Shown here piece after piece: positions 1-5,638 of a stretch of 5,638 bases of DNA (position 1 is the first letter of the stretch; every line of letters starts with the position of its first letter). The translations under genes and the position numbers were made by a program. Below the pieces are notes generated by a model, which saw only the letters and a program-made list of their open reading frames with translations, did no database searches and was not told the DNA's origin. The stretch lies in IMG/VR virus record IMGVR_UViG_3300029181_000111; one strand, written 5' to 3'. This stretch comes from a virus (lineage: Duplodnaviria > Heunggongvirae > Uroviricota > Caudoviricetes).

Positions 1-51
1 CTGACACCGTTGAATTATCTCGCCAAACAGCGACAAAAAGTGATGTGGTGA
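1..51 (+). CDS. Possible 3' end of an upstream AraC-family regulator gene (envY-like); 5' part lies outside the window
   Basis: Frame 1 reads LTPLNYLAKQRQKVMW then TGA at 49-51. The TP..Y spacing resembles the C-terminal G-x-TP-x-x-Y tail of AraC/XylS proteins (compare [10 protein letters not shown] at the AppY C-terminus in this window). Only 16 codons are visible, and frame 3 is also open here, so this is weak. Confidence 0.3.
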   Translation: MTPLNYLAKQRQKVMW

Positions 52-96
52 AGGGCAAAGCGGAAACGGATAAGACGGGCATAAATGAGGAAGAAA

Positions 97-141
97 TGGC
101 GCGCCCTGCAGGATTCGAACCTGCGGCCCACGACTTAGAAG
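97..141 (-). other. 3'-terminal 45 nt of tRNA-Arg(UCU) (argU) without the 5' half: prophage attachment-site core (attR-type remnant)
   Basis: Reverse complement of 97-141 is CTTCTAAGTCGTGGGCCGCAGGTTCGAATCCTGCAGGGCGCGCCA: anticodon loop with UCU, T-arm GGTTCGAATCC, acceptor 3' strand and CCA. Sequence beyond 141 (tRNA 5' side) does not continue as a D-arm or acceptor 5' strand, so this is a fragment, not a gene. Lambdoid prophage DLP12 is known to integrate into argU. Confidence 0.85.
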
Positions 142-464
142 TTCCTAGAACGACATTTTAAGTCAACAACTTACCGCGCCATCTCTGCGCTCACACGTCC
201 CACTACCTCAAAACATGTAAAGCCTTGCAAGCCATTGCGAGGCCTTATGTGTCTCAGTTTTGTCCCTCTTTTTTGTACTAAAAAACATAGTAATTGAGGA
301 TAAACCTCATGCTATTTTCGCTTATATGCCTCTAAAGGCATGGCACTTAAATAGATAAAAGCACCACAAAAGCATAAAAAAACCACACAGTAAAACCGAA
401 ATATGAAACAATAACAGATAATTAAACCAAAAACAGATAGCGCATTGTGATAATCATTCAATAC

Positions 465-481
465 TAAACAAAATATAAACA
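465..481 (-). promoter_or_regulatory. Candidate PhoP box (direct repeat TGTTTA-N5-TGTTTA read on the minus strand) upstream of ompT
   Basis: Plus strand 465-481 is TAAACAAAATATAAACA; reverse complement is TGTTTA-TATTT-TGTTTA, a perfect match to the (T/G)GTTTA-N5-(T/G)GTTTA PhoP consensus. It sits about 85-100 bp upstream of the ompT ATG. ompT is reported to be PhoPQ-regulated; function of this particular site is inferred. Confidence 0.45.
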
Positions 482-553
482 GTGGAGCAATATGTAATTG
501 ACTCATTAAGTTAGATATAAAAAATACATATTCAATCATTAAAACGATTGAAT

Positions 554-557
554 GGAG
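554..557 (+). promoter_or_regulatory. Shine-Dalgarno sequence (GGAG) for ompT
   Basis: GGAG lies 7 nt upstream of the ATG at 565. Confidence 0.7.
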
Positions 558-564
558 AACTTTT

Positions 565-624
565 ATGCGGGCGAAACTTCTGGGAATAGTCCTGACAACC
601 CCTATTGCGATCAGCTCTTTTGCT
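565..624 (+). other. ompT: OmpT signal peptide (predicted cleavage after Ala20, SFA/STE)
   Basis: N-terminal basic residues (R2, K4), a hydrophobic core, and A-x-A-like SFA before the mature N-terminus STETLSF. Confidence 0.8.
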
Positions 625-1518
625 TCTACCGAGACTTTATCGTTTACTCCTGACAACATAAATGCGGACATTAGTCTTGGAACTCTGAGCGGAAAAACAA
701 AAGAGCGTGTTTATCTAGCCGAAGAAGGAGGCCGAAAAGTCAGTCAACTCGACTGGAAATTCAATAACGCTGCAATTATTAAAGGTGCAATTAATTGGGA
801 TTTGATGCCCCAGATATCTATCGGGGCTGCTGGCTGGACAACTCTCGGCAGCCGAGGTGGCAATATGGTCGATCAGGACTGGATGGATTCCAGTAACCCC
901 GGAACCTGGACGGATGAAAGTAGACACCCTGATACACAACTCAATTATGCCAACGAATTTGATCTGAATATCAAAGGCTGGCTCCTCAACGAACCCAATT
1001 ACCGCCTGGGACTCATGGCCGGATATCAGGAAAGCCGTTATAGCTTTACAGCCAGAGGTGGTTCCTATATCTACAGTTCTGAGGAGGGATTCAGAGATGA
1101 TATCGGCTCCTTCCCGAATGGAGAAAGAGCAATCGGCTACAAACAACGTTTTAAAATGCCCTACATTGGCTTGACTGGAAGTTATCGTTATGAAGATTTT
1201 GAACTCGGTGGCACATTTAAATACAGCGGCTGGGTGGAATCATCTGATAACGATGAACACTATGACCCGGGAAAAAGAATCACTTATCGCAGTAAGGTCA
1301 AAGACCAAAATTACTATTCTGTTGCAGTCAATGCAGGTTATTACGTCACACCTAACGCAAAAGTTTATGTTGAAGGCGCATGGAATCGGGTTACGAATAA
1401 AAAAGGTAATACTTCACTTTATGATCACAATAATAACACTTCAGACTACAGCAAAAATGGAGCAGGTATAGAAAACTATAACTTCATCACTACTGCTGGT
1501 CTTAAGTACACATTTTAA
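565..1518 (+). CDS. ompT: Outer membrane protease OmpT (omptin family, protease VII), 317-aa precursor
   Basis: ORF of 317 aa with good RBS. The translation matches E. coli OmpT as I recall it, including signal peptide MRAKLLGIVLTTPIAISSFA, the catalytic Asp pair in VDQDWMD (precursor D103/D105) and the Asp/His pair in SDNDEHYD (precursor D230/H232), and a C-terminal aromatic residue (…GLKYTF) typical of beta-barrel outer membrane proteins. Confidence 0.97.
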   Translation: MRAKLLGIVLTTPIAISSFASTETLSFTPDNINADISLGTLSGKTKERVYLAEEGGRKVSQLDWKFNNAAIIKGAINWDLMPQISIGAAGWTTLGSRGGNMVDQDWMDSSNPGTWTDESRHPDTQLNYANEFDLNIKGWLLNEPNYRLGLMAGYQESRYSFTARGGSYIYSSEEGFRDDIGSFPNGERAIGYKQRFKMPYIGLTGSYRYEDFELGGTFKYSGWVESSDNDEHYDPGKRITYRSKVKDQNYYSVAVNAGYYVTPNAKVYVEGAWNRVTNKKGNTSLYDHNNNTSDYSKNGAGIENYNFITTAGLKYTF

Positions 1519-1534
1519 GAACGCCAACTAAAAT

Positions 1535-1563
1535 TTCCCCGAGGTGAAAATCGCCCCGGGGAA
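1535..1563. terminator. GC-rich hairpin in the convergent ompT/appY intergenic region; possible transcription terminator
   Basis: TTCCCCG (1535-1541) pairs with CGGGGAA (1557-1563), 7 bp with a 15-nt loop, 17 bp after the ompT stop. There is no U-tract on the plus strand; on the minus strand it is followed by AUUUUAG. Weak as a classical intrinsic terminator. Confidence 0.3.
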
Positions 1564-1767
1564 TAACTAGCCATTTCAATGTAACAATTAACCCTTAAAA
1601 TAAACCCAGAAGGTTATTAACTAAATCACATAGAAAACCATCAATTATAGTATGTATAAAATAGGCGACAGCAACCCAATTACAAATTAATGGTTCCAGA
1701 ATATCACATCAAAAAAAACGCTGTATAATATTATAATTAACATGTAGACAACTTGTAATAAACATTA

Positions 1768-2517
1768 TCAGTCAATTGTTTTGTTTATTCCATCTGTGAC
1801 GCCGATTATTTTCTCAAAATAATGAGATGGCGTGACACCATAATAATCTTTAAATGCACATATGAAATATGAAGTACTGTTATAGCCACATTTCTGGGCT
1901 ACGACATTGATAGAATAAGAGTTTGAAGTTATGAGTTTTTTTGCATACCTCATCCTAGTATCTCTCAATATTTCAGTAAATGACGTTCCTTCATCCCTTA
2001 ATCTTTTTTTTATTAAACTTTCACTCGTATAAATCAATTCCGCAATATCTTTTAAATGCCATTGCCGCTCAATATTAAAACTGATTATTCCAGTAATTTT
2101 ACAGGTAAATGTATTTATATTTGTTAGTATAAATGAATTTACACTTTCGCGTTTTTTGAACATGGCAAGTAAGGATATACATAGTCTTTCTTTTAACCAA
2201 AGGGAGTGTGAGTCTGCTATTTTAATCCCTTCAAACAGAGAAAAAACAAGCGATAATGGAGGTTCCTCTTCAGCAATATAGCCATTCTTATCAAGAGTAA
2301 ATTTGCCAGGCAGCTCATTATTCACGTCGATAAAAAAGGATAAACATGTTTTCTTATCTATATCAACAATTCTTAGTTTAGAGGGGCATACTGGTAACTC
2401 CCTTCTAATTTTGTCGCTTACAATAAACAATGAATTTTTTTTGAACGAGATAACTCTCCTGTTTATAATTAAATCAAATGATTGACAGATGAAAACTACG
2501 GAGCAAACATAATCCAT
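1768..2517 (-). CDS. appY: AraC-family transcriptional activator AppY (C-terminal HTH domain), 249 aa
   Basis: 249-aa ORF with ATG start and an AGGTG SD-like sequence upstream. The C-terminal region has AraC-type HTH signatures (…[25 protein letters not shown]…). It is convergent with ompT as in K-12 DLP12, and the sequence matches my recollection of AppY. The gene is very AT-rich. Confidence 0.9.
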
Positions 2518-3062
2518 CTTGCACCTATCATAAAATTAAAACAAGTTGATAGTAGTCAAATAACAACCAATTAAATACACAATCATAATCAGGATGATGT
2601 GCATTTATATTTTTATACACAAAATTATAGTTTGCAAATTTTAATAAATTTCATTTAAGATTAAATTATTATATGTATGTTGTTTTTTATTCTAACTTAT
2701 TTCAAAGTTACATTTTTCAACGCTTACTATGCTTTTTATTAACATAAACTCACTACAACGCACCTGAAACCTCTTGCTATATATATGTCAACCGTTTGAA
2801 TTTAAAATAAAAAGAGTATCATTTTTACTTGCATTTCTTATCAAGTCACATTCAACAACAGTAAAAAAACATTATTAGAACCATTCAATTAACAAAAAAC
2901 CAACATCCAGCTTGCTTAATTTTTCTTTATTAAACGATATTGAAAATCAATTGATAAAATACATCTAAACAACCTTTTGGGGCGCAAAAGCATAACATCA
3001 AACAAACAAATAACACACCGAAAAAACTCACAATTAATAACCTATGATATACATACTGTTTA

Positions 3063-3323
3063 TTATGGTTGAATAAGCCACTCGATATCTGGTGCTACGG
3101 AAGTGTCCACACGGTTTAGCAGCACCCGATACTTTTTTCAGGCTTCCAGCAACGATCTTTCTTCCTCCGTTGCGATTTCCAGATCTACAGCATCCTGCAG
3201 TGGCGCAATATACTCACTGAATTCCTGGATGTAGAACTGTGTGGTGACGGTCTTCCAGCCATTCGGCTCCTGCTGTATTGAAGCATACCAGGCTATTTCA
3301 ATATCGCTATGCTGCGGCAGCAT
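3063..3323 (-). pseudogene. tfaX: Tail fibre assembly protein remnant (tfaX-like); C-terminal Tfa homology interrupted by an in-frame TGA
   Basis: The 61-aa ORF 3138-3323 ends …[25 protein letters not shown], matching the intact Tfa in this window (…[29 protein letters not shown]…). At the position of Tfa Trp (TGG) this copy has TGA. Reading on in the same frame gives [20 protein letters not shown]… to a TAA at 3063-3065. The N-terminal part is diverged. Confidence 0.7.
3077..3219. repeat. Copy 1 of a 143-bp imperfect direct repeat (3' end of tfa-family genes)
   Basis: By hand alignment, 3077-3219 against 4124-4266 shows about 17 mismatches over 143 bp (about 88% identity) with no indels. 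Confidence 0.85.
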
Positions 3324-3461
3324 TTAACCCCTTGTAATTCATTGCCATAATTGATTTAATTCACAAATAAAACTATAACATGGTGAAATTAATAAAAAAA
3401 CACAGATGATGGGGCTAGAATTTACACACCACTTACCCTAAAGCTTTATGACTGGTGGGTT

Positions 3462-4046
3462 TTGGGAGTATCAAATCGGCTTGCATGGGGATGTCCTACA
3501 AAGGAACACCTTCTTCCACACTTTCTGGAACATTTAGGTAACAACCATCTGGATATTGGTGTTGGAACTGGGTTTTACCTTACTCACGTACCTGAGAGTA
3601 GTCTGATATCTTTAATGGATTTGAACGAAGCTAGCCTGAACGCGGCATCTACAAGGGCTGGGGAATCAAAAATTAAACATAAAATTAGCCATGATGTTTT
3701 TGAACCTTATCCCGCGGCGTTACATGGTCAATTTGATTCCATTTCCATGTCTTACCTTCTTCACTGCCTGCCTGGAAATATATCTACAAAAAGCTGTGTA
3801 ATACGCAATGCGGCGCAGGCCTTAACTGACGATGGAACTCTATACGGAGCCACAATTCTTGGCGATGGAGTTGTGCACAATAGCTTCGGTCAAAAACTGA
3901 TGCGCATTTACAATCAGAAAGGCATCTTTTCAAACACAAAAGATTCCGAAGAAGGCTTAACACATATACTCTCAGAGCATTTCGAGAATGTTAAAACCAA
4001 GGTTCAAGGTACTGTAGTAATGTTTTCCGCTTCAGGAAAAAAATAG
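3462..4046 (+). CDS. ybcY: Class I SAM-dependent methyltransferase (ybcY-like); start codon uncertain, possibly 5'-truncated or a pseudogene
   Basis: Motif I LDIGVGTG, an acidic residue after beta-2 (LISLMDLNE) and an FDSISMSYLLHCL motif-II-like segment. The ORF track starts at TTG 3462 with a poorly spaced SD. The same frame is open back to 3396 (…PLTLKLYDWWVLGVS…) with no in-frame ATG or GTG. ATG-ATG at 3406-3411 is one nucleotide out of frame. The position between tfa and tfaX matches ybcY of K-12 DLP12. Confidence 0.6.
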   Translation: MGVSNRLAWGCPTKEHLLPHFLEHLGNNHLDIGVGTGFYLTHVPESSLISLMDLNEASLNAASTRAGESKIKHKISHDVFEPYPAALHGQFDSISMSYLLHCLPGNISTKSCVIRNAAQALTDDGTLYGATILGDGVVHNSFGQKLMRIYNQKGIFSNTKDSEEGLTHILSEHFENVKTKVQGTVVMFSASGKK

Positions 4047-4086
4047 CATCCAACCGCAGCATGTTCTTGCTTAAGACGTGCTGCGG
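4038..4086 (-). terminator. Candidate intrinsic terminator downstream of tfa (minus-strand sense)
   Basis: Stem CCGCAGCATG (4054-4063) pairs with CGTGCTGCGG (4077-4086), 10 bp with one G-U pair and a 13-nt loop. On the minus strand it is followed by UUGGAUGCUAUUUUUUU. It lies between the convergent stops of tfa (4101) and ybcY (4046). Confidence 0.35.
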
Positions 4087-4100
4087 CATAATCCCAATGA

Positions 4101-4685
4101 TTACTCCCTGACAGGGTTCGTAGGCCACTCAATATCAGGTGCAGTTGATGTATCAACACGGTTCAGCAACACCCGATATTTTTTCCAGGCTTCCAGCAAT
4201 GAGGTTTCTTCCTCCGTTGCGATTTCCAGATCTACAGCATCCTGAAGTGGCGCAATATGCTCACTGGCTACCTGCATCAGGCTGTTTTTTGTTTCTTCCG
4301 CCTCCCGAATCCGGAACAGTTTTTCTGCTTCTGCATCTTTCACCCAGGCTGTACCGTTCCACTTCTGAAACTCCCCTTCCGGCGATAACCAGGTAACATT
4401 TTCCGGTAACGGACCGAGTTCAGAAATAAATAACGCGTCCCCTGACGCTACGTCATAAACCGTTTTACCCCGATGATCTTCAACGAGATGCCACGATGAC
4501 TCATCACTGTTGAAAACAGCCACGAAGCCAGCTGGAATATCTGGCGGTGCAATGTCGGTACTGTTTGCTGGCAGACCTGTATGAGGCGGAATATATGCAT
4601 CACCTTCACCAATAAATTCATTAGTTCCGGCCAGCAGATTATAAATTTTTATGGTCCGTGGTTGTTCACTCATTCTGAATGCCAT
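4101..4685 (-). CDS. tfaD: Tail fibre assembly protein Tfa (lambda Tfa-like), 194 aa, apparently intact
   Basis: The 194-aa ORF ([24 protein letters not shown]…[11 protein letters not shown]) closely matches lambda Tfa as recalled. Its ATG overlaps the upstream stf stop in the TAATG arrangement typical of stf-tfa. The symbol is assigned by position in DLP12 and is uncertain. Confidence 0.9.
4124..4266. repeat. Copy 2 of the 143-bp imperfect direct repeat (3' end of the intact tfa)
   Basis: See copy 1. This copy lies within the tfa coding sequence. Confidence 0.85.
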
Positions 4686-5548
4686 TATGCAAGCCTCACA
4701 ATATAGTTAAATGCGATGTTTTTGACGGTGTTTTCCGCGTTACCAGCAGCGTTAACGGTGATGGTGTGTCCATGTGAGCCAATCGCAACGGAGTGCGTAT
4801 GAGCACCAATACCGACAGTATGTGCATGTGCGCCTGCGCTTGCAGCAGTGCCGGACAGCGAGTGGGTATGAGCACCATCTGATGATGTCTTCCCTGCATT
4901 ACGAGTCTGGCCACTACCGCTTGTTGTGCTCATAATCCCCGCGCTCAGATTTGAAATCGCGGTATAACCATTAGGAAAAATGCTCGTATTCGTGCCACCA
5001 AATGCACCGGAACTCTTGTGTTGGTGCGCACCGGCACTATTTGCAGTCCCGCTAATACTATGGGTATGCGCCCCGGTGTTATTCGTGGATTTGGTTCCGT
5101 AATCAAACGACGATGTGTTTTTCGTCCCCAAATCCGTACTGGATGCGCTGGCGCTGTGGGTGTGCGATTTAATGCCGTCCTGTTCCTGAGACAATACGGC
5201 ACGACCACTGGCGGGTTTGCCCTTAATCGTCCAGCCACGCATAAGGGTGTTGCGCTGCTTATGCTCTATAAAGTAGGCATAAACACCCAGCAGCATTTTG
5301 GAATAACCGACACGGGCAGACTTCACCACATTCACCTCACGGATGTAGTCGCTGCCCATCGCATTCATGATGGCCCGCTGAAAGGGCAGTGTTTCCCAGC
5401 GCCCTTCCTGGTATGCGGATTCTTTCGGGAGATAGTAATTAGCATCCGCCCATTCAACGGCGGTCTGTGGCTCCGGCCTGAACAGTGAGCGAAGCCCGGC
5501 GCGGACAAAATGCCGCAGCCTGTTAACCTGACTGTTCGATATATTCAC
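4685..5548 (-). CDS. In-frame chimeric ORF: N-terminal ~103 aa of terminase large subunit (lambda gpA-like) fused to the C-terminal ~184 aa of a side tail fibre (Stf) receptor-binding region; deletion scar of a defective prophage
   Basis: The N-terminus [102 protein letters not shown] matches lambda gpA as recalled, with a GTG start overlapping the Nu1 stop. After …RNTL the sequence switches to Stf-like His/Gly/Ser-rich repeats ending …[31 protein letters not shown]. The junction is near nt 5240. It may correspond to the aaaD/stf remnant of K-12 DLP12, which I am not sure of. Confidence 0.85.
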
Positions 5549-5638
5549 TCAGCAACCCCGGTATCAGTTCATCCAGCGCGGCTGCTTTGTTCATGGCTTT
5601 GATGATATCCCGTTTCAGGAAATCAACATGTCGGTTTT
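5523..5638 (-). CDS. nohD: 3' end of terminase small subunit gene (lambda Nu1 homologue); 5' part lies outside the window
   Basis: The minus-strand frame reads …[37 protein letters not shown] with TAA at 5523-5525, matching the lambda Nu1 C-terminus as recalled. The stop overlaps the start of the downstream A-like ORF, as in lambda. Confidence 0.8.

What the first reader, a model, noticed from the sequence alone, without database searches (positions are those of the whole stretch)
3396..4046. Orphan SAM-dependent methyltransferase without a conventional start codon
The ORF has clear class I methyltransferase motifs, but its frame is open from 3396 with no ATG or GTG before the TTG at 3462, whose SD is only 2 nt away. 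An ATG-ATG pair at 3406-3411 sits one base out of frame just after an A7 homopolymer (3394-3400). A single-base indel, or a 5' truncation at the recombination boundary with tfaX, could explain this. The substrate is unknown. There are none of the DPPY or PCQ-type motifs of DNA methyltransferases and no adjacent nuclease gene, so a restriction-modification role is unlikely.
Basis: partly seen in the sequence, partly recalled or inferred. Interest (0 to 1): 0.4.

Follow-up and report, generated by a model that had tools for sequence, protein, structure and literature searches.

The report
Frameshifted prophage methyltransferase pseudogene (ybcY)
This is a broken copy of a methyltransferase gene that lambda-like prophages carry in about 70% of E. 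coli genomes: it lost two bases at its real start codon, which is the defect already annotated as the ybcY pseudogene of E. coli K-12, so the finding is ordinary.

Summary
The frame is open from 3396, TTG at 3462 is the first possible start, A7 lies at 3394-3400, and the class I SAM-methyltransferase motifs are present.

The cause is a small lesion, not an unusual start codon. Intact alleles read TTAATGAAAAAAAAC. The window reads TTAAT--AAAAAAAC, a net loss of 2 nt. This removes the G of the true ATG and shifts the frame.

The true start is that second ATG. It has a GGTGA Shine-Dalgarno sequence 5 nt upstream, and all distant orthologues and the phage family phrog_2132 begin there.

The ATG at 3380 aligns with AAG inside the Shine-Dalgarno sequence of the Enterobacter orthologue. 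The ATG-ATG at 3406-3411 is ordinary internal coding sequence (Asp-Asp).

There is no 5' truncation. The upstream spacer is colinear with intact alleles.

RefSeq already marks this allele "frameshifted" in E. coli K-12 strains and in NCTC9038. A TTG-started product would lack eight invariant N-terminal residues. The copy also carries F125S at a near-invariant position.

Alleles with A9, A8 and A7 tracts after a lost G suggest stepwise decay.

The intact protein has a small-molecule-type class I methyltransferase fold. Its substrate is unknown, and nothing indicates a DNA methyltransferase or a defence system.

The parts
3324..3351 (+). Promoter-like site TTAACC-16-(TG)CATAAT upstream of the methyltransferase gene
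   Evidence: Consensus scan. The region had 2 sites against 2.8 expected by chance, so this is weak on its own.
3351..3379 (+). TTGATT-17-TATAAC, the constitutive sigma-70 promoter assigned to ybcY in the literature. Its -10 hexamer abuts the ATG at 3380.
   Evidence: Shimada et al. 2014 (PMC3946193) list TTGATT-17-TATAAC for ybcY with an H-NS mark. The sequence was read. The block ATTGATTTAATTCAC is identical in the Enterobacter orthologue.
3380..3409 (+). Stub ORF MVKLIKKHR* from the upstream ATG. RefSeq uses this ATG as the start of the pseudogene and of intact alleles.
   Evidence: This ATG aligns with AAG in Enterobacter, so it is not the conserved start.
3382..3386 (+). Shine-Dalgarno sequence GGTGA, 5 nt upstream of the position of the lost start codon
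   Evidence: Sequence read. AAGGTGAAATTAATG is conserved in Enterobacter.
3392..3400 (+). The lesion. ATA + A6 stands where intact alleles have ATG + A8, so the true start codon is destroyed and the frame shifted (net -2 nt).
   Evidence: Alignments. Allele counts.
3396..4046 (+). Remaining open frame of the methyltransferase (residues 7-222 of the intact 222-aa RefSeq model), ending at TAG 4044-4046
3462..3464 (+). TTG taken as a start by ORF finders. It is codon Leu29 of the intact protein, and GGTGGG ends only 2 nt upstream.
   Evidence: Starting here would remove the invariant residues Y16, P18, L21, Y24, D25, W26, W27 and V28.
3549..3572 (+). SAM-binding motif I, LDIGVGTG. D59, G61, G63 and G65 are invariant in the family.
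   Evidence: alignment. Coordinates derived.
3750..3752 (+). TCT (Ser) where the compared E. coli and phage alleles have TTT (Phe125). The substitution falls in a near-invariant column and is specific to this allele.
4054..4086 (.). Stable hairpin between the convergent methyltransferase and tail-fibre-assembly genes. It could act as a two-way terminator but has no U-run.
   Evidence: -21.2 kcal/mol, z = -4.6, 0 of 200 shuffles fold as well.
3074..3230 (-). Upstream copy of the 3' end of a tail-fibre-assembly gene (tfaX fragment). It is a direct repeat of 4121-4277.
   Evidence: searches (157 nt, 85% identity; 26 of 35 aa identical), and the RefSeq pseudogene call.
4121..4277 (-). Downstream copy of the same repeat, inside the full-length tail-fibre-assembly gene at 4101-4685

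Best explanation
The feature is an inactivated copy (pseudogene) of a cargo gene of lambda-like prophages. It carries the same allele as ybcY (b0562) of the DLP12 prophage of E. coli K-12.

**The intact gene.** It encodes a cytoplasmic class I SAM-dependent methyltransferase of 218 aa. It has its own promoter and lies between the tail-fibre-assembly gene and the ompT/integrase end of the prophage, on the opposite strand to the tail genes. Translation starts at ATG-AAA-AAA-AAC (M-K-K-N), 5 nt after a GGTGA Shine-Dalgarno sequence.

**The lesion.** In the window this ATG plus A8 has become ATA plus A6, a net loss of 2 nt. The start codon is gone, and the only upstream ATG (3380) reads into a stop after 9 codons.

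**Consequence.** The TTG at 3462 is just the first start-like triplet inside the orphaned frame. A product started there would lack the invariant N-terminal segment YTPLTLKLYDWWV. The copy also carries F125S. No functional enzyme is expected.

**Likely path.** G to A at the start codon produced an A9 tract. Slippage then shortened it to A8 and then A7.

**What is shown and what is inferred.**
- Shown: the lesion, its position relative to the conserved start, its distribution, the fold, and the absence of DNA-methylase features.
- Inferred: the order of the mutational steps, the lack of translation, and that the intact enzyme methylates a small molecule or lipid rather than DNA.
For: **Lesion.** Intact alleles (IAI39, O157:H7, A32, phage ev243) read TTAATGAAAAAAAAC. 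The window and K-12 read TTAATAAAAAAAC. Re-inserting GA restores a 222-codon ORF.

**Existing annotation.** RefSeq marks the identical allele 'class I SAM-dependent methyltransferase, frameshifted' in K-12 strain ER1709, in NCTC9038 and in FCI51.

**True start.**
- phrog_2132 aligns from residue 5, positions 1-218 of 218.
- Most homologues from other genera are 218-224 aa, and those aligned begin at the M5 position.
- The Enterobacter, Yersinia and Erwinia orthologues have a Shine-Dalgarno sequence before that ATG.
- The E. coli ATG at 3380 aligns with AAG of AAGGTGA in Enterobacter.

**Distribution.**
- The gene is in 3831 of 5426 complete E. coli genomes.
- In an even sample of 60 records, 52 have the intact length and 7 the window's length.
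- The window's exact 95-mer is in 379 records. The intact 97-mer is in 1314.

**Decay series.** All of these lie in the same appY-type prophage context: ATA-A8 (an A9 tract) in GPEC1189, TAAT-A8 in LR-48 and ZH177, and TAAT-A7 in the window.

**Selection.** Four other alleles differ from the intact IAI39 allele by 9 synonymous and 3 non-synonymous changes, one of which is M5I in GPEC1189. The window's lineage adds K14R and F125S.

**Loss of essential parts.** Eight invariant residues precede Leu29. They lie in or before helix 18-36 of a model with pLDDT 90.

**Live phages.** Lambdoid phages ev243, 2G7b, PhiR29 and others carry the intact gene.
Against: - No expression data were examined. Low-level translation from TTG 3462, or rare slippage on A7, cannot be excluded from sequence alone.
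- A constitutive promoter has been reported for ybcY in K-12 (PMC3946193), so the remnant may still be transcribed.
- The order of steps (substitution, then slippage) rests on single assemblies: GPEC1189, LR-48 and ZH177. Homopolymer lengths in single assemblies can be wrong. A direct GA deletion would give the same end state.
- FCI51 has the same A7 allele on a different SNP and gene background. The lesion therefore either recurred or was moved by recombination.
- The choice between the two ATGs in intact alleles is comparative, not experimental.
Confidence: 0.9

Rival explanations
1. The gene is functional and is translated from the TTG at 3462, giving a 194-aa N-terminally shortened methyltransferase.
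For: The frame is open and TTG is a legal bacterial start. A G-rich stretch, GGTGGG, precedes it. The SAM-binding motifs downstream are intact. A promoter has been reported upstream.
Against: - The spacing of 2 nt from GGTGGG to TTG is too short for a working Shine-Dalgarno sequence.
- TTG is codon Leu29 in the compared E. coli and phage intact alleles and in most aligned relatives from other genera.
- Eight invariant residues (Y16 to V28) would be lost.
- The allele also carries F125S.
- RefSeq treats it as a pseudogene.
Confidence: 0.04
2. The full-length protein is still made from the ATG at 3380 by recoding: a +1 ribosomal frameshift, or RNA polymerase slippage (loss of one A) on the A7 tract.
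For: ATG 3380 is followed by ATA AAA AAA, and moving +1 within the A-run joins it to the methyltransferase frame. Homopolymeric A-runs are known slippage sites (general knowledge).
Against: - The two-frame arrangement is not conserved. About 87% of sampled E. coli copies, all the phage copies examined at the DNA level, and all the other genera examined have one continuous ORF.
- ATG 3380 has no Shine-Dalgarno sequence, abuts the reported -10 hexamer, and is not conserved (AAG in Enterobacter).
- A7 is shorter than the runs of 9 or more that give efficient transcriptional slippage (general knowledge).
- There is no stimulatory context.
Confidence: 0.03
3. The 5' end was cut off by the recombination event that created the tfaX fragment, so the start codon lies outside the present locus.
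For: The methyltransferase is bracketed by direct repeats of the 3' end of a tail-fibre-assembly gene (3074-3230 and 4121-4277, 85% identical). This shows past recombination in the region.
Against: The window is colinear with intact alleles from 3290 through the promoter-like block and the Shine-Dalgarno sequence up to the lesion, with one SNP only. The same flanking tail-fibre-assembly fragment is present next to intact copies in IAI39, O157:H7 and phage ev243.
Confidence: 0.01
4. The start-proximal A8 tract is a contingency (phase-variation) switch that turns the prophage methyltransferase on and off. On this reading the window shows the 'off' state rather than a dead gene.
For: The tract sits directly after the start codon. 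Several length states exist among genomes: A9, A8 and A7 after a lost G, and ATG-A7 in 11 records.
Against: - On the commonest background, ATG-A8 is found in 1314 records, ATG-A7 in 11 and ATG-A9 in 0.
- All 52 intact-length records in the even sample have the same length.
- The window allele has lost the G of the ATG, which slippage cannot restore.
- It has also picked up F125S.
- Some single-assembly length variants may be homopolymer errors.
Confidence: 0.03

Closest known systems
ybcY (b0562), DLP12 prophage of E. coli K-12
   Same: The sequence is 100% identical over window 3324-4100 to K-12 laboratory strains ER1709, NEB5-alpha, JM109 and others. It has the same TAAT-A7 lesion and the same F125S. 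The neighbours are the same: ompT, appY, tfaX fragment and tail-fibre-assembly gene. RefSeq annotates it 'frameshifted'. From my own knowledge, ybcY is listed as a pseudogene in the K-12 reference annotation.
   Different: The window as a whole is not K-12. It has 701 nt (4540-5240) that K-12 lacks. No complete E. coli genome holds the whole window in one piece.
Intact prophage/phage methyltransferase WP_000239881.1 / phrog_2132 (for example gp26 of Escherichia phage ev243)
   Same: About 99% identical over the shared 216 residues. It occupies the same position between the tail-fibre-assembly gene and the ompT-integrase end, in the same orientation and with the same upstream region.
   Different: The intact gene has ATG-A8 and Phe125. 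The window has ATA-A6 and Ser125. Other prophages carry a TAP-like alpha/beta hydrolase where this one has appY.
Small-molecule and lipid class I methyltransferases with solved structures: phosphatidylethanolamine N-methyltransferase 8ys9, juvenile-hormone acid methyltransferase 7ec0, RebM 3bus, UbiG 4kdr
   Different: Sequence identity is only 11-21%. The scores form a flat plateau with no single best relative, so no substrate can be transferred. The conserved N-terminal YTPLTLKLYDWWV segment is specific to this family.
Orphan and restriction-modification DNA methyltransferases of phages (Dam- or Dcm-like)
   Same: Phage-borne, SAM-dependent, and with no partner nuclease nearby.
   Different: There is no DPPY/NPPY or PCQ catalytic motif, no DNA-methylase Pfam family, no target-recognition domain in a protein of about 220 aa, and no PADLOC match.

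Membership tests
Class I (Rossmann-fold) SAM-dependent methyltransferases | Motif I (D/E-x-G-x-G-x-G) after strand 1 | tested here: met
   LDIGVGTG at 3549-3572. D59, G61, G63 and G65 are invariant in 28 relatives. Pfam Methyltransf_12, _23, _25 and _11 are above their cut-offs.
Class I (Rossmann-fold) SAM-dependent methyltransferases | Acidic residue at the end of strand 2 and seven-stranded sheet fold | tested here: met
Class I (Rossmann-fold) SAM-dependent methyltransferases | Binds SAM and transfers a methyl group | not testable with these tools
   This needs biochemistry on the intact protein.
YbcY / phrog_2132 family as a functional gene | Full-length similarity to the family profile | tested here: met
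   For the repaired or intact sequence, phrog_2132 gives E 8e-157 over positions 1-218 of 218. There are 411 cluster representatives at E <= 1e-30.
YbcY / phrog_2132 family as a functional gene | Continuous ORF starting at the conserved Met (M5 of the RefSeq model) with a Shine-Dalgarno sequence | tested here: not met
   In the window the ATG is replaced by ATA and the frame is shifted by -2 nt. The window holds a pseudogene of the family, not a working member.
DNA methyltransferases (restriction-modification or orphan) | Catalytic motif IV (D/N/S-PP-Y/F/W for N-methylation, or PCQ plus ENV for C5) | tested here: not met
   A regular-expression scan of the intact protein finds no [DNS]PP[YFW] and no PCQ. 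A lone ENV without PCQ is meaningless. No DNA-methylase Pfam hit at E <= 0.01.
DNA methyltransferases (restriction-modification or orphan) | Adjacent restriction endonuclease or specificity subunit | tested here: not met
   The neighbours are tail-fibre-assembly fragments, appY and ompT in the window. In Yersinia, Erwinia and Enterobacter the neighbours are unrelated housekeeping genes. No PADLOC model matches.
Phosphatidylethanolamine N-methyltransferase (PmtA type) | Specific sequence or structure similarity above that to other class I methyltransferases | tested here: inconclusive
Programmed frameshift / transcriptional-slippage genes | Two-frame arrangement and slippery site conserved among orthologues | tested here: not met
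   All intact E. coli, phage, Enterobacter, Yersinia and Erwinia copies examined are single ORFs. The shifted arrangement is a minority state.
Phase-variable (contingency) loci | Frequent, reversible length variation of the repeat tract among close relatives | tested here: not met
   ATG-A8 is in 1314 records, ATG-A7 in 11 and ATG-A9 in 0 on the same 97-nt background. The window allele has also lost the G of the ATG, which slippage cannot restore.

The most novel reading that the evidence does not exclude
The A8 tract directly after the start codon of this very common prophage methyltransferase could be a recurrent on/off switch or inactivation hot-spot that selection uses. On this reading E. 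coli lineages repeatedly silence a cargo enzyme whose small-molecule or lipid product is costly in some niches, and the window is one such 'off' state. A related open point is that the intact enzyme, present in about 70% of complete E. coli genomes, has no known substrate.
Probability: 0.06. Interest if true: 0.45.

Novelty: already known. Interest (0 to 1): 0.1.

Why it matters
It matters little for the window itself: this is a known, annotated pseudogene.

Three modest points come out of the check.
1. ORF finders report a misleading 194-aa TTG-started 'methyltransferase' here. That model should not be propagated.
2. The RefSeq model of the intact protein (222 aa, from the upstream ATG) is probably four codons too long. 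The conserved start is the second ATG.
3. The intact family is one of the commonest prophage cargo genes of E. coli, with stand-alone orthologues across Enterobacterales, yet its substrate is unknown. This is a reasonable target for functional work. The K-12 laboratory strains lack a working copy, so they are natural null backgrounds for it.

Tried and rejected
- **Methyltransferase-esterase gene pair.** A hydrolase lies near the gene in E. coli prophages, Erwinia and Enterobacter. The three hydrolases belong to different families and are not detectably similar to each other (TAP-like Abhydrolase_1/4, COesterase, small Abhydrolase_1; BLASTP E 0.8). Rejected as coincidence.
- **Defence system.** No PADLOC model matches the methyltransferase.
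- **Domain fusions among distant relatives as functional clues.** The longer relatives carry no informative Pfam domain. One is a fungal RCC1 fusion.
- **Names attached to distant clusters.** Only generic labels turned up: 'SAM-dependent methyltransferase' and 'UbiE'.
- **NCBIfam.** Only a far sub-threshold hit to CpaM, 19.7 bits against a cut-off of 180.
- **Conserved gene neighbourhood outside E. coli.** None was found in Yersinia, Erwinia or Enterobacter.
- **Literature.** ybcY appears only in gene lists, in one deletion mutant with no phenotype, and in a promoter table. No functional study was found.
- **Sequencing error as the cause.** Rejected, because the allele is identical in 379 independent complete assemblies.
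- **A tRNA at the prophage end (about 95-170).** ARAGORN and Rfam found nothing.

Full report
**What is in the window.**
- The gene order is ompT (565-1518, +), appY (1768-2517, -), a 3' fragment of a tail-fibre-assembly gene (tfaX region, 3074-3323, -), the methyltransferase frame (3396-4046, +), a full tail-fibre-assembly gene (4101-4685, -), and a chimeric ORF that joins a tail-fibre fragment to a terminase fragment (4685-5548, -).
- This is the right end of a DLP12-type lambdoid prophage.
- Window 3324-4100 is 100% identical to E. coli K-12 laboratory strains.
- In K-12 strain ER1709, RefSeq annotates 3380-4046 as 'class I SAM-dependent methyltransferase, frameshifted'. This is ybcY of DLP12. 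The name is from my own knowledge and from the gene lists.

**The observation.**
It opens MVKLIKKHR* in the third frame.

**The lesion.**
- Intact alleles in IAI39, O157:H7 strain 3384, A32 and phage ev243 read ...GGTGAAATTAATGAAAAAAAACACAGAT....
- The window reads ...GGTGAAATTAAT--AAAAAAACACAGAT.... The net loss is 2 nt: the G of an ATG and one A of an A8 tract.
- Putting GA back gives a 222-codon ORF counted from the ATG at 3380.
- There is no truncation. From 3290 to the lesion the window differs from IAI39 by one SNP. Intact copies have the same tail-fibre-assembly fragment upstream.

**Which ATG is the real start.** RefSeq starts intact proteins at the upstream ATG, giving 222 aa. Four lines of evidence point to the second ATG, the one destroyed here:
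- The phage family profile phrog_2132 begins at residue 5 and is matched end to end at E 8e-157.
- Most homologues from Salmonella, Citrobacter, Enterobacter, Klebsiella, Yersinia, Erwinia, Pantoea and Pasteurellaceae are 218-224 aa. Those aligned begin at that Met.
- GGTGA lies 5 nt upstream of it. The Yersinia and Erwinia orthologues have AAGGA 7-8 nt before the equivalent ATG.
- In the Enterobacter orthologue the upstream region is conserved (ATTGATTTAATTCAC ... AAGGTGAAATTAATG). There the E. coli upstream ATG corresponds to AAG, which is part of the Shine-Dalgarno sequence.

In addition, the promoter published for ybcY, TTGATT-17-TATAAC (PMC3946193), has its -10 hexamer ending at 3379. A transcript from it would probably start downstream of the ATG at 3380. 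This last point is inference, because no transcription-start data were available.

**Consequences for the product.**
- TTG 3462 is codon Leu29. In front of it lie the invariant residues Y16, P18, L21, Y24, D25, W26, W27 and V28. They lie in or just before helix 18-36 of a confident model (pLDDT 90.2).
- The window's allele also has Ser for the near-invariant Phe125 (T to C at 3751). This change is absent from all seven compared alleles, including its closest relative LR-48.
- Four other alleles differ from the intact IAI39 allele by 9 synonymous and 3 non-synonymous changes. One of the three is M5I in GPEC1189. The window's lineage has K14R and F125S plus one synonymous change.
- This is what a gene under purifying selection, and a decaying copy of it, should look like.

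**Distribution and history.**
- The gene is in 3831 of 5426 complete E. coli genomes, with up to 4 copies per genome.
- In a sample of 60 records taken at even steps down the ranking, 52 have the intact length, 7 have the window's length and 1 is partial.
- The window's exact 95-mer is in 379 records. The sampled ones look like K-12 laboratory derivatives. NCTC9038 and GPEC1446 match window 1-5243 at 100%, and RefSeq marks the NCTC9038 copy 'frameshifted'.
- NCTC9038 still has a full tail-fibre gene and lom. The frameshift therefore predates the large DLP12 deletions.
- I built the hypothetical intermediate allele, with ATG changed to ATA to give an A9 tract, and searched for it. It exists in exactly one genome, GPEC1189, in the same appY-type prophage context.
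- LR-48 shares two derived SNPs with the window. LR-48 and ZH177 both have TAAT-A8. ZH177 also has an internal deletion.
- These alleles fit a path from ATG-A8 to ATA-A8 to A8 to A7. The path rests on single assemblies, and a direct GA deletion is equally possible.
- FCI51 has A7 on a different SNP and gene background. This means either recurrence or recombination.
- On the commonest background, ATG-A7 is in 11 records and ATG-A9 in none, against 1314 with ATG-A8. The tract is at most a mild hot-spot, not a phase-variation switch.

**What the intact protein is.**
- Pfam gives only generic methyltransferase domains. NCBIfam gives nothing usable.
- No DNA-methylase motif or family was found, and no defence model.
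- Outside E. coli the gene stands alone in the chromosome, with no conserved neighbour.
- The family has 411 cluster representatives at E <= 1e-30. It reaches Acidobacteria and lichen-forming fungi, and none carries an informative name or domain fusion.
- Live temperate phages carry it intact, next to ompT and a TAP-like hydrolase.
- My working view is that it is a self-promoted cargo ('moron') gene for a cytoplasmic methyltransferase acting on a small molecule or lipid. I hold this with low confidence as to substrate.

**Rivals.**
- Translation from TTG 3462: unlikely because of the poor spacing, the loss of invariant residues and F125S.
- Recoding from ATG 3380: the arrangement is not conserved, there is no Shine-Dalgarno sequence, and the ATG itself is not conserved.
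- 5' truncation: refuted by colinearity with intact alleles.
- Phase variation: the allele counts do not fit, and the lost G cannot be restored by slippage.
- Sequencing error: excluded by 379 identical assemblies.

**Verdict.** It is wrong about the size of the indel, about which ATG matters, and about truncation. The feature is the known ybcY pseudogene allele. Novelty: already known. Interest: low.

Noticed in passing
window 4540-5240 and the junction at about 5241-5243: The window is not colinear with K-12. K-12 strain ER1709 matches 1-4539 and 5241-5638 at 100% but lacks the 701 nt in between. NCTC9038 and GPEC1446 match 1-5243 and then continue into an intact tail-fibre gene. No complete E. 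coli genome holds the whole window in one piece (best 93%). The window and K-12 share the same terminase-side end point but have different tail-side end points, which is odd for independent deletions.
   Followed up: partly
window 4685-5548 (-): A 287-aa chimeric ORF. Its N-terminal part looks like the start of a lambda-type terminase large subunit, and the rest is a His- and Gly-rich C-terminal fragment of a tail fibre. It is a deletion-fusion product of the decayed prophage.
   Followed up: partly
window 4144-4342 (-): Rfam family IS009 (RF02111) matches at 227.8 bits (gathering score 117), full length, inside the 3' half of the tail-fibre-assembly gene. The related repeat copy at 3074-3230 did not reach the threshold.
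   Followed up: no
window 3991-4128 (-): RefSeq annotates a 45-aa 'nucleocapsid protein' (WP_071592174.1; 'hypothetical protein' in other strains). It overlaps the 3' end of the methyltransferase and the intergenic hairpin. It looks like a spurious small-ORF call.
   Followed up: no
window 4054-4086: A strong hairpin (-21.2 kcal/mol, z = -4.6) lies between the convergent methyltransferase and tail-fibre-assembly genes, without a U-run. It may be a two-way terminator or an RNA-stability element.
   Followed up: partly
L002 3557-4225 and other intact alleles (equivalent to window 3380-3394): The RefSeq model of the intact protein (WP_000239881.1, 222 aa) starts at an ATG that is not conserved and overlaps the Shine-Dalgarno sequence. 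The conserved start is four codons downstream, giving 218 aa as in phrog_2132 and in other genera.
   Followed up: yes
L002 1534-3018; L011 2959-4443 (the place of appY, window 1768-2517): In many prophages and in phage ev243, a 494-aa TAP-like alpha/beta hydrolase sits between ompT and the tail-fibre-assembly fragment, where this window has appY. It matches the PADLOC candidate model PDLC01094 (C3a206) at E 7e-56.
   Followed up: partly
window 3290-3395 vs L008 5910-6003: The non-coding region upstream of the methyltransferase (CCTTGTAATT, ATTGATTTAATTCAC, GGTGAAATTAATG) is conserved between the E. coli prophage copy and a stand-alone chromosomal Enterobacter orthologue whose protein is only about 65% identical. 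This suggests a conserved regulatory region, or that the gene moved as a cassette.
   Followed up: partly
window 2400-3000: A very AT-rich stretch (GC 0.25-0.26) lies upstream of appY. The ybcY-tfaX spacer is marked as H-NS-bound in PMC3946193.
   Followed up: no
window about 95-170: The sequence GGCGCGCCCTGCAGGATTCGAACCTGCGG... looks like the 3' part of a tRNA on the minus strand. From my own knowledge this is the argU-like attachment-site remnant of DLP12. ARAGORN and Rfam report no tRNA there.
   Followed up: partly
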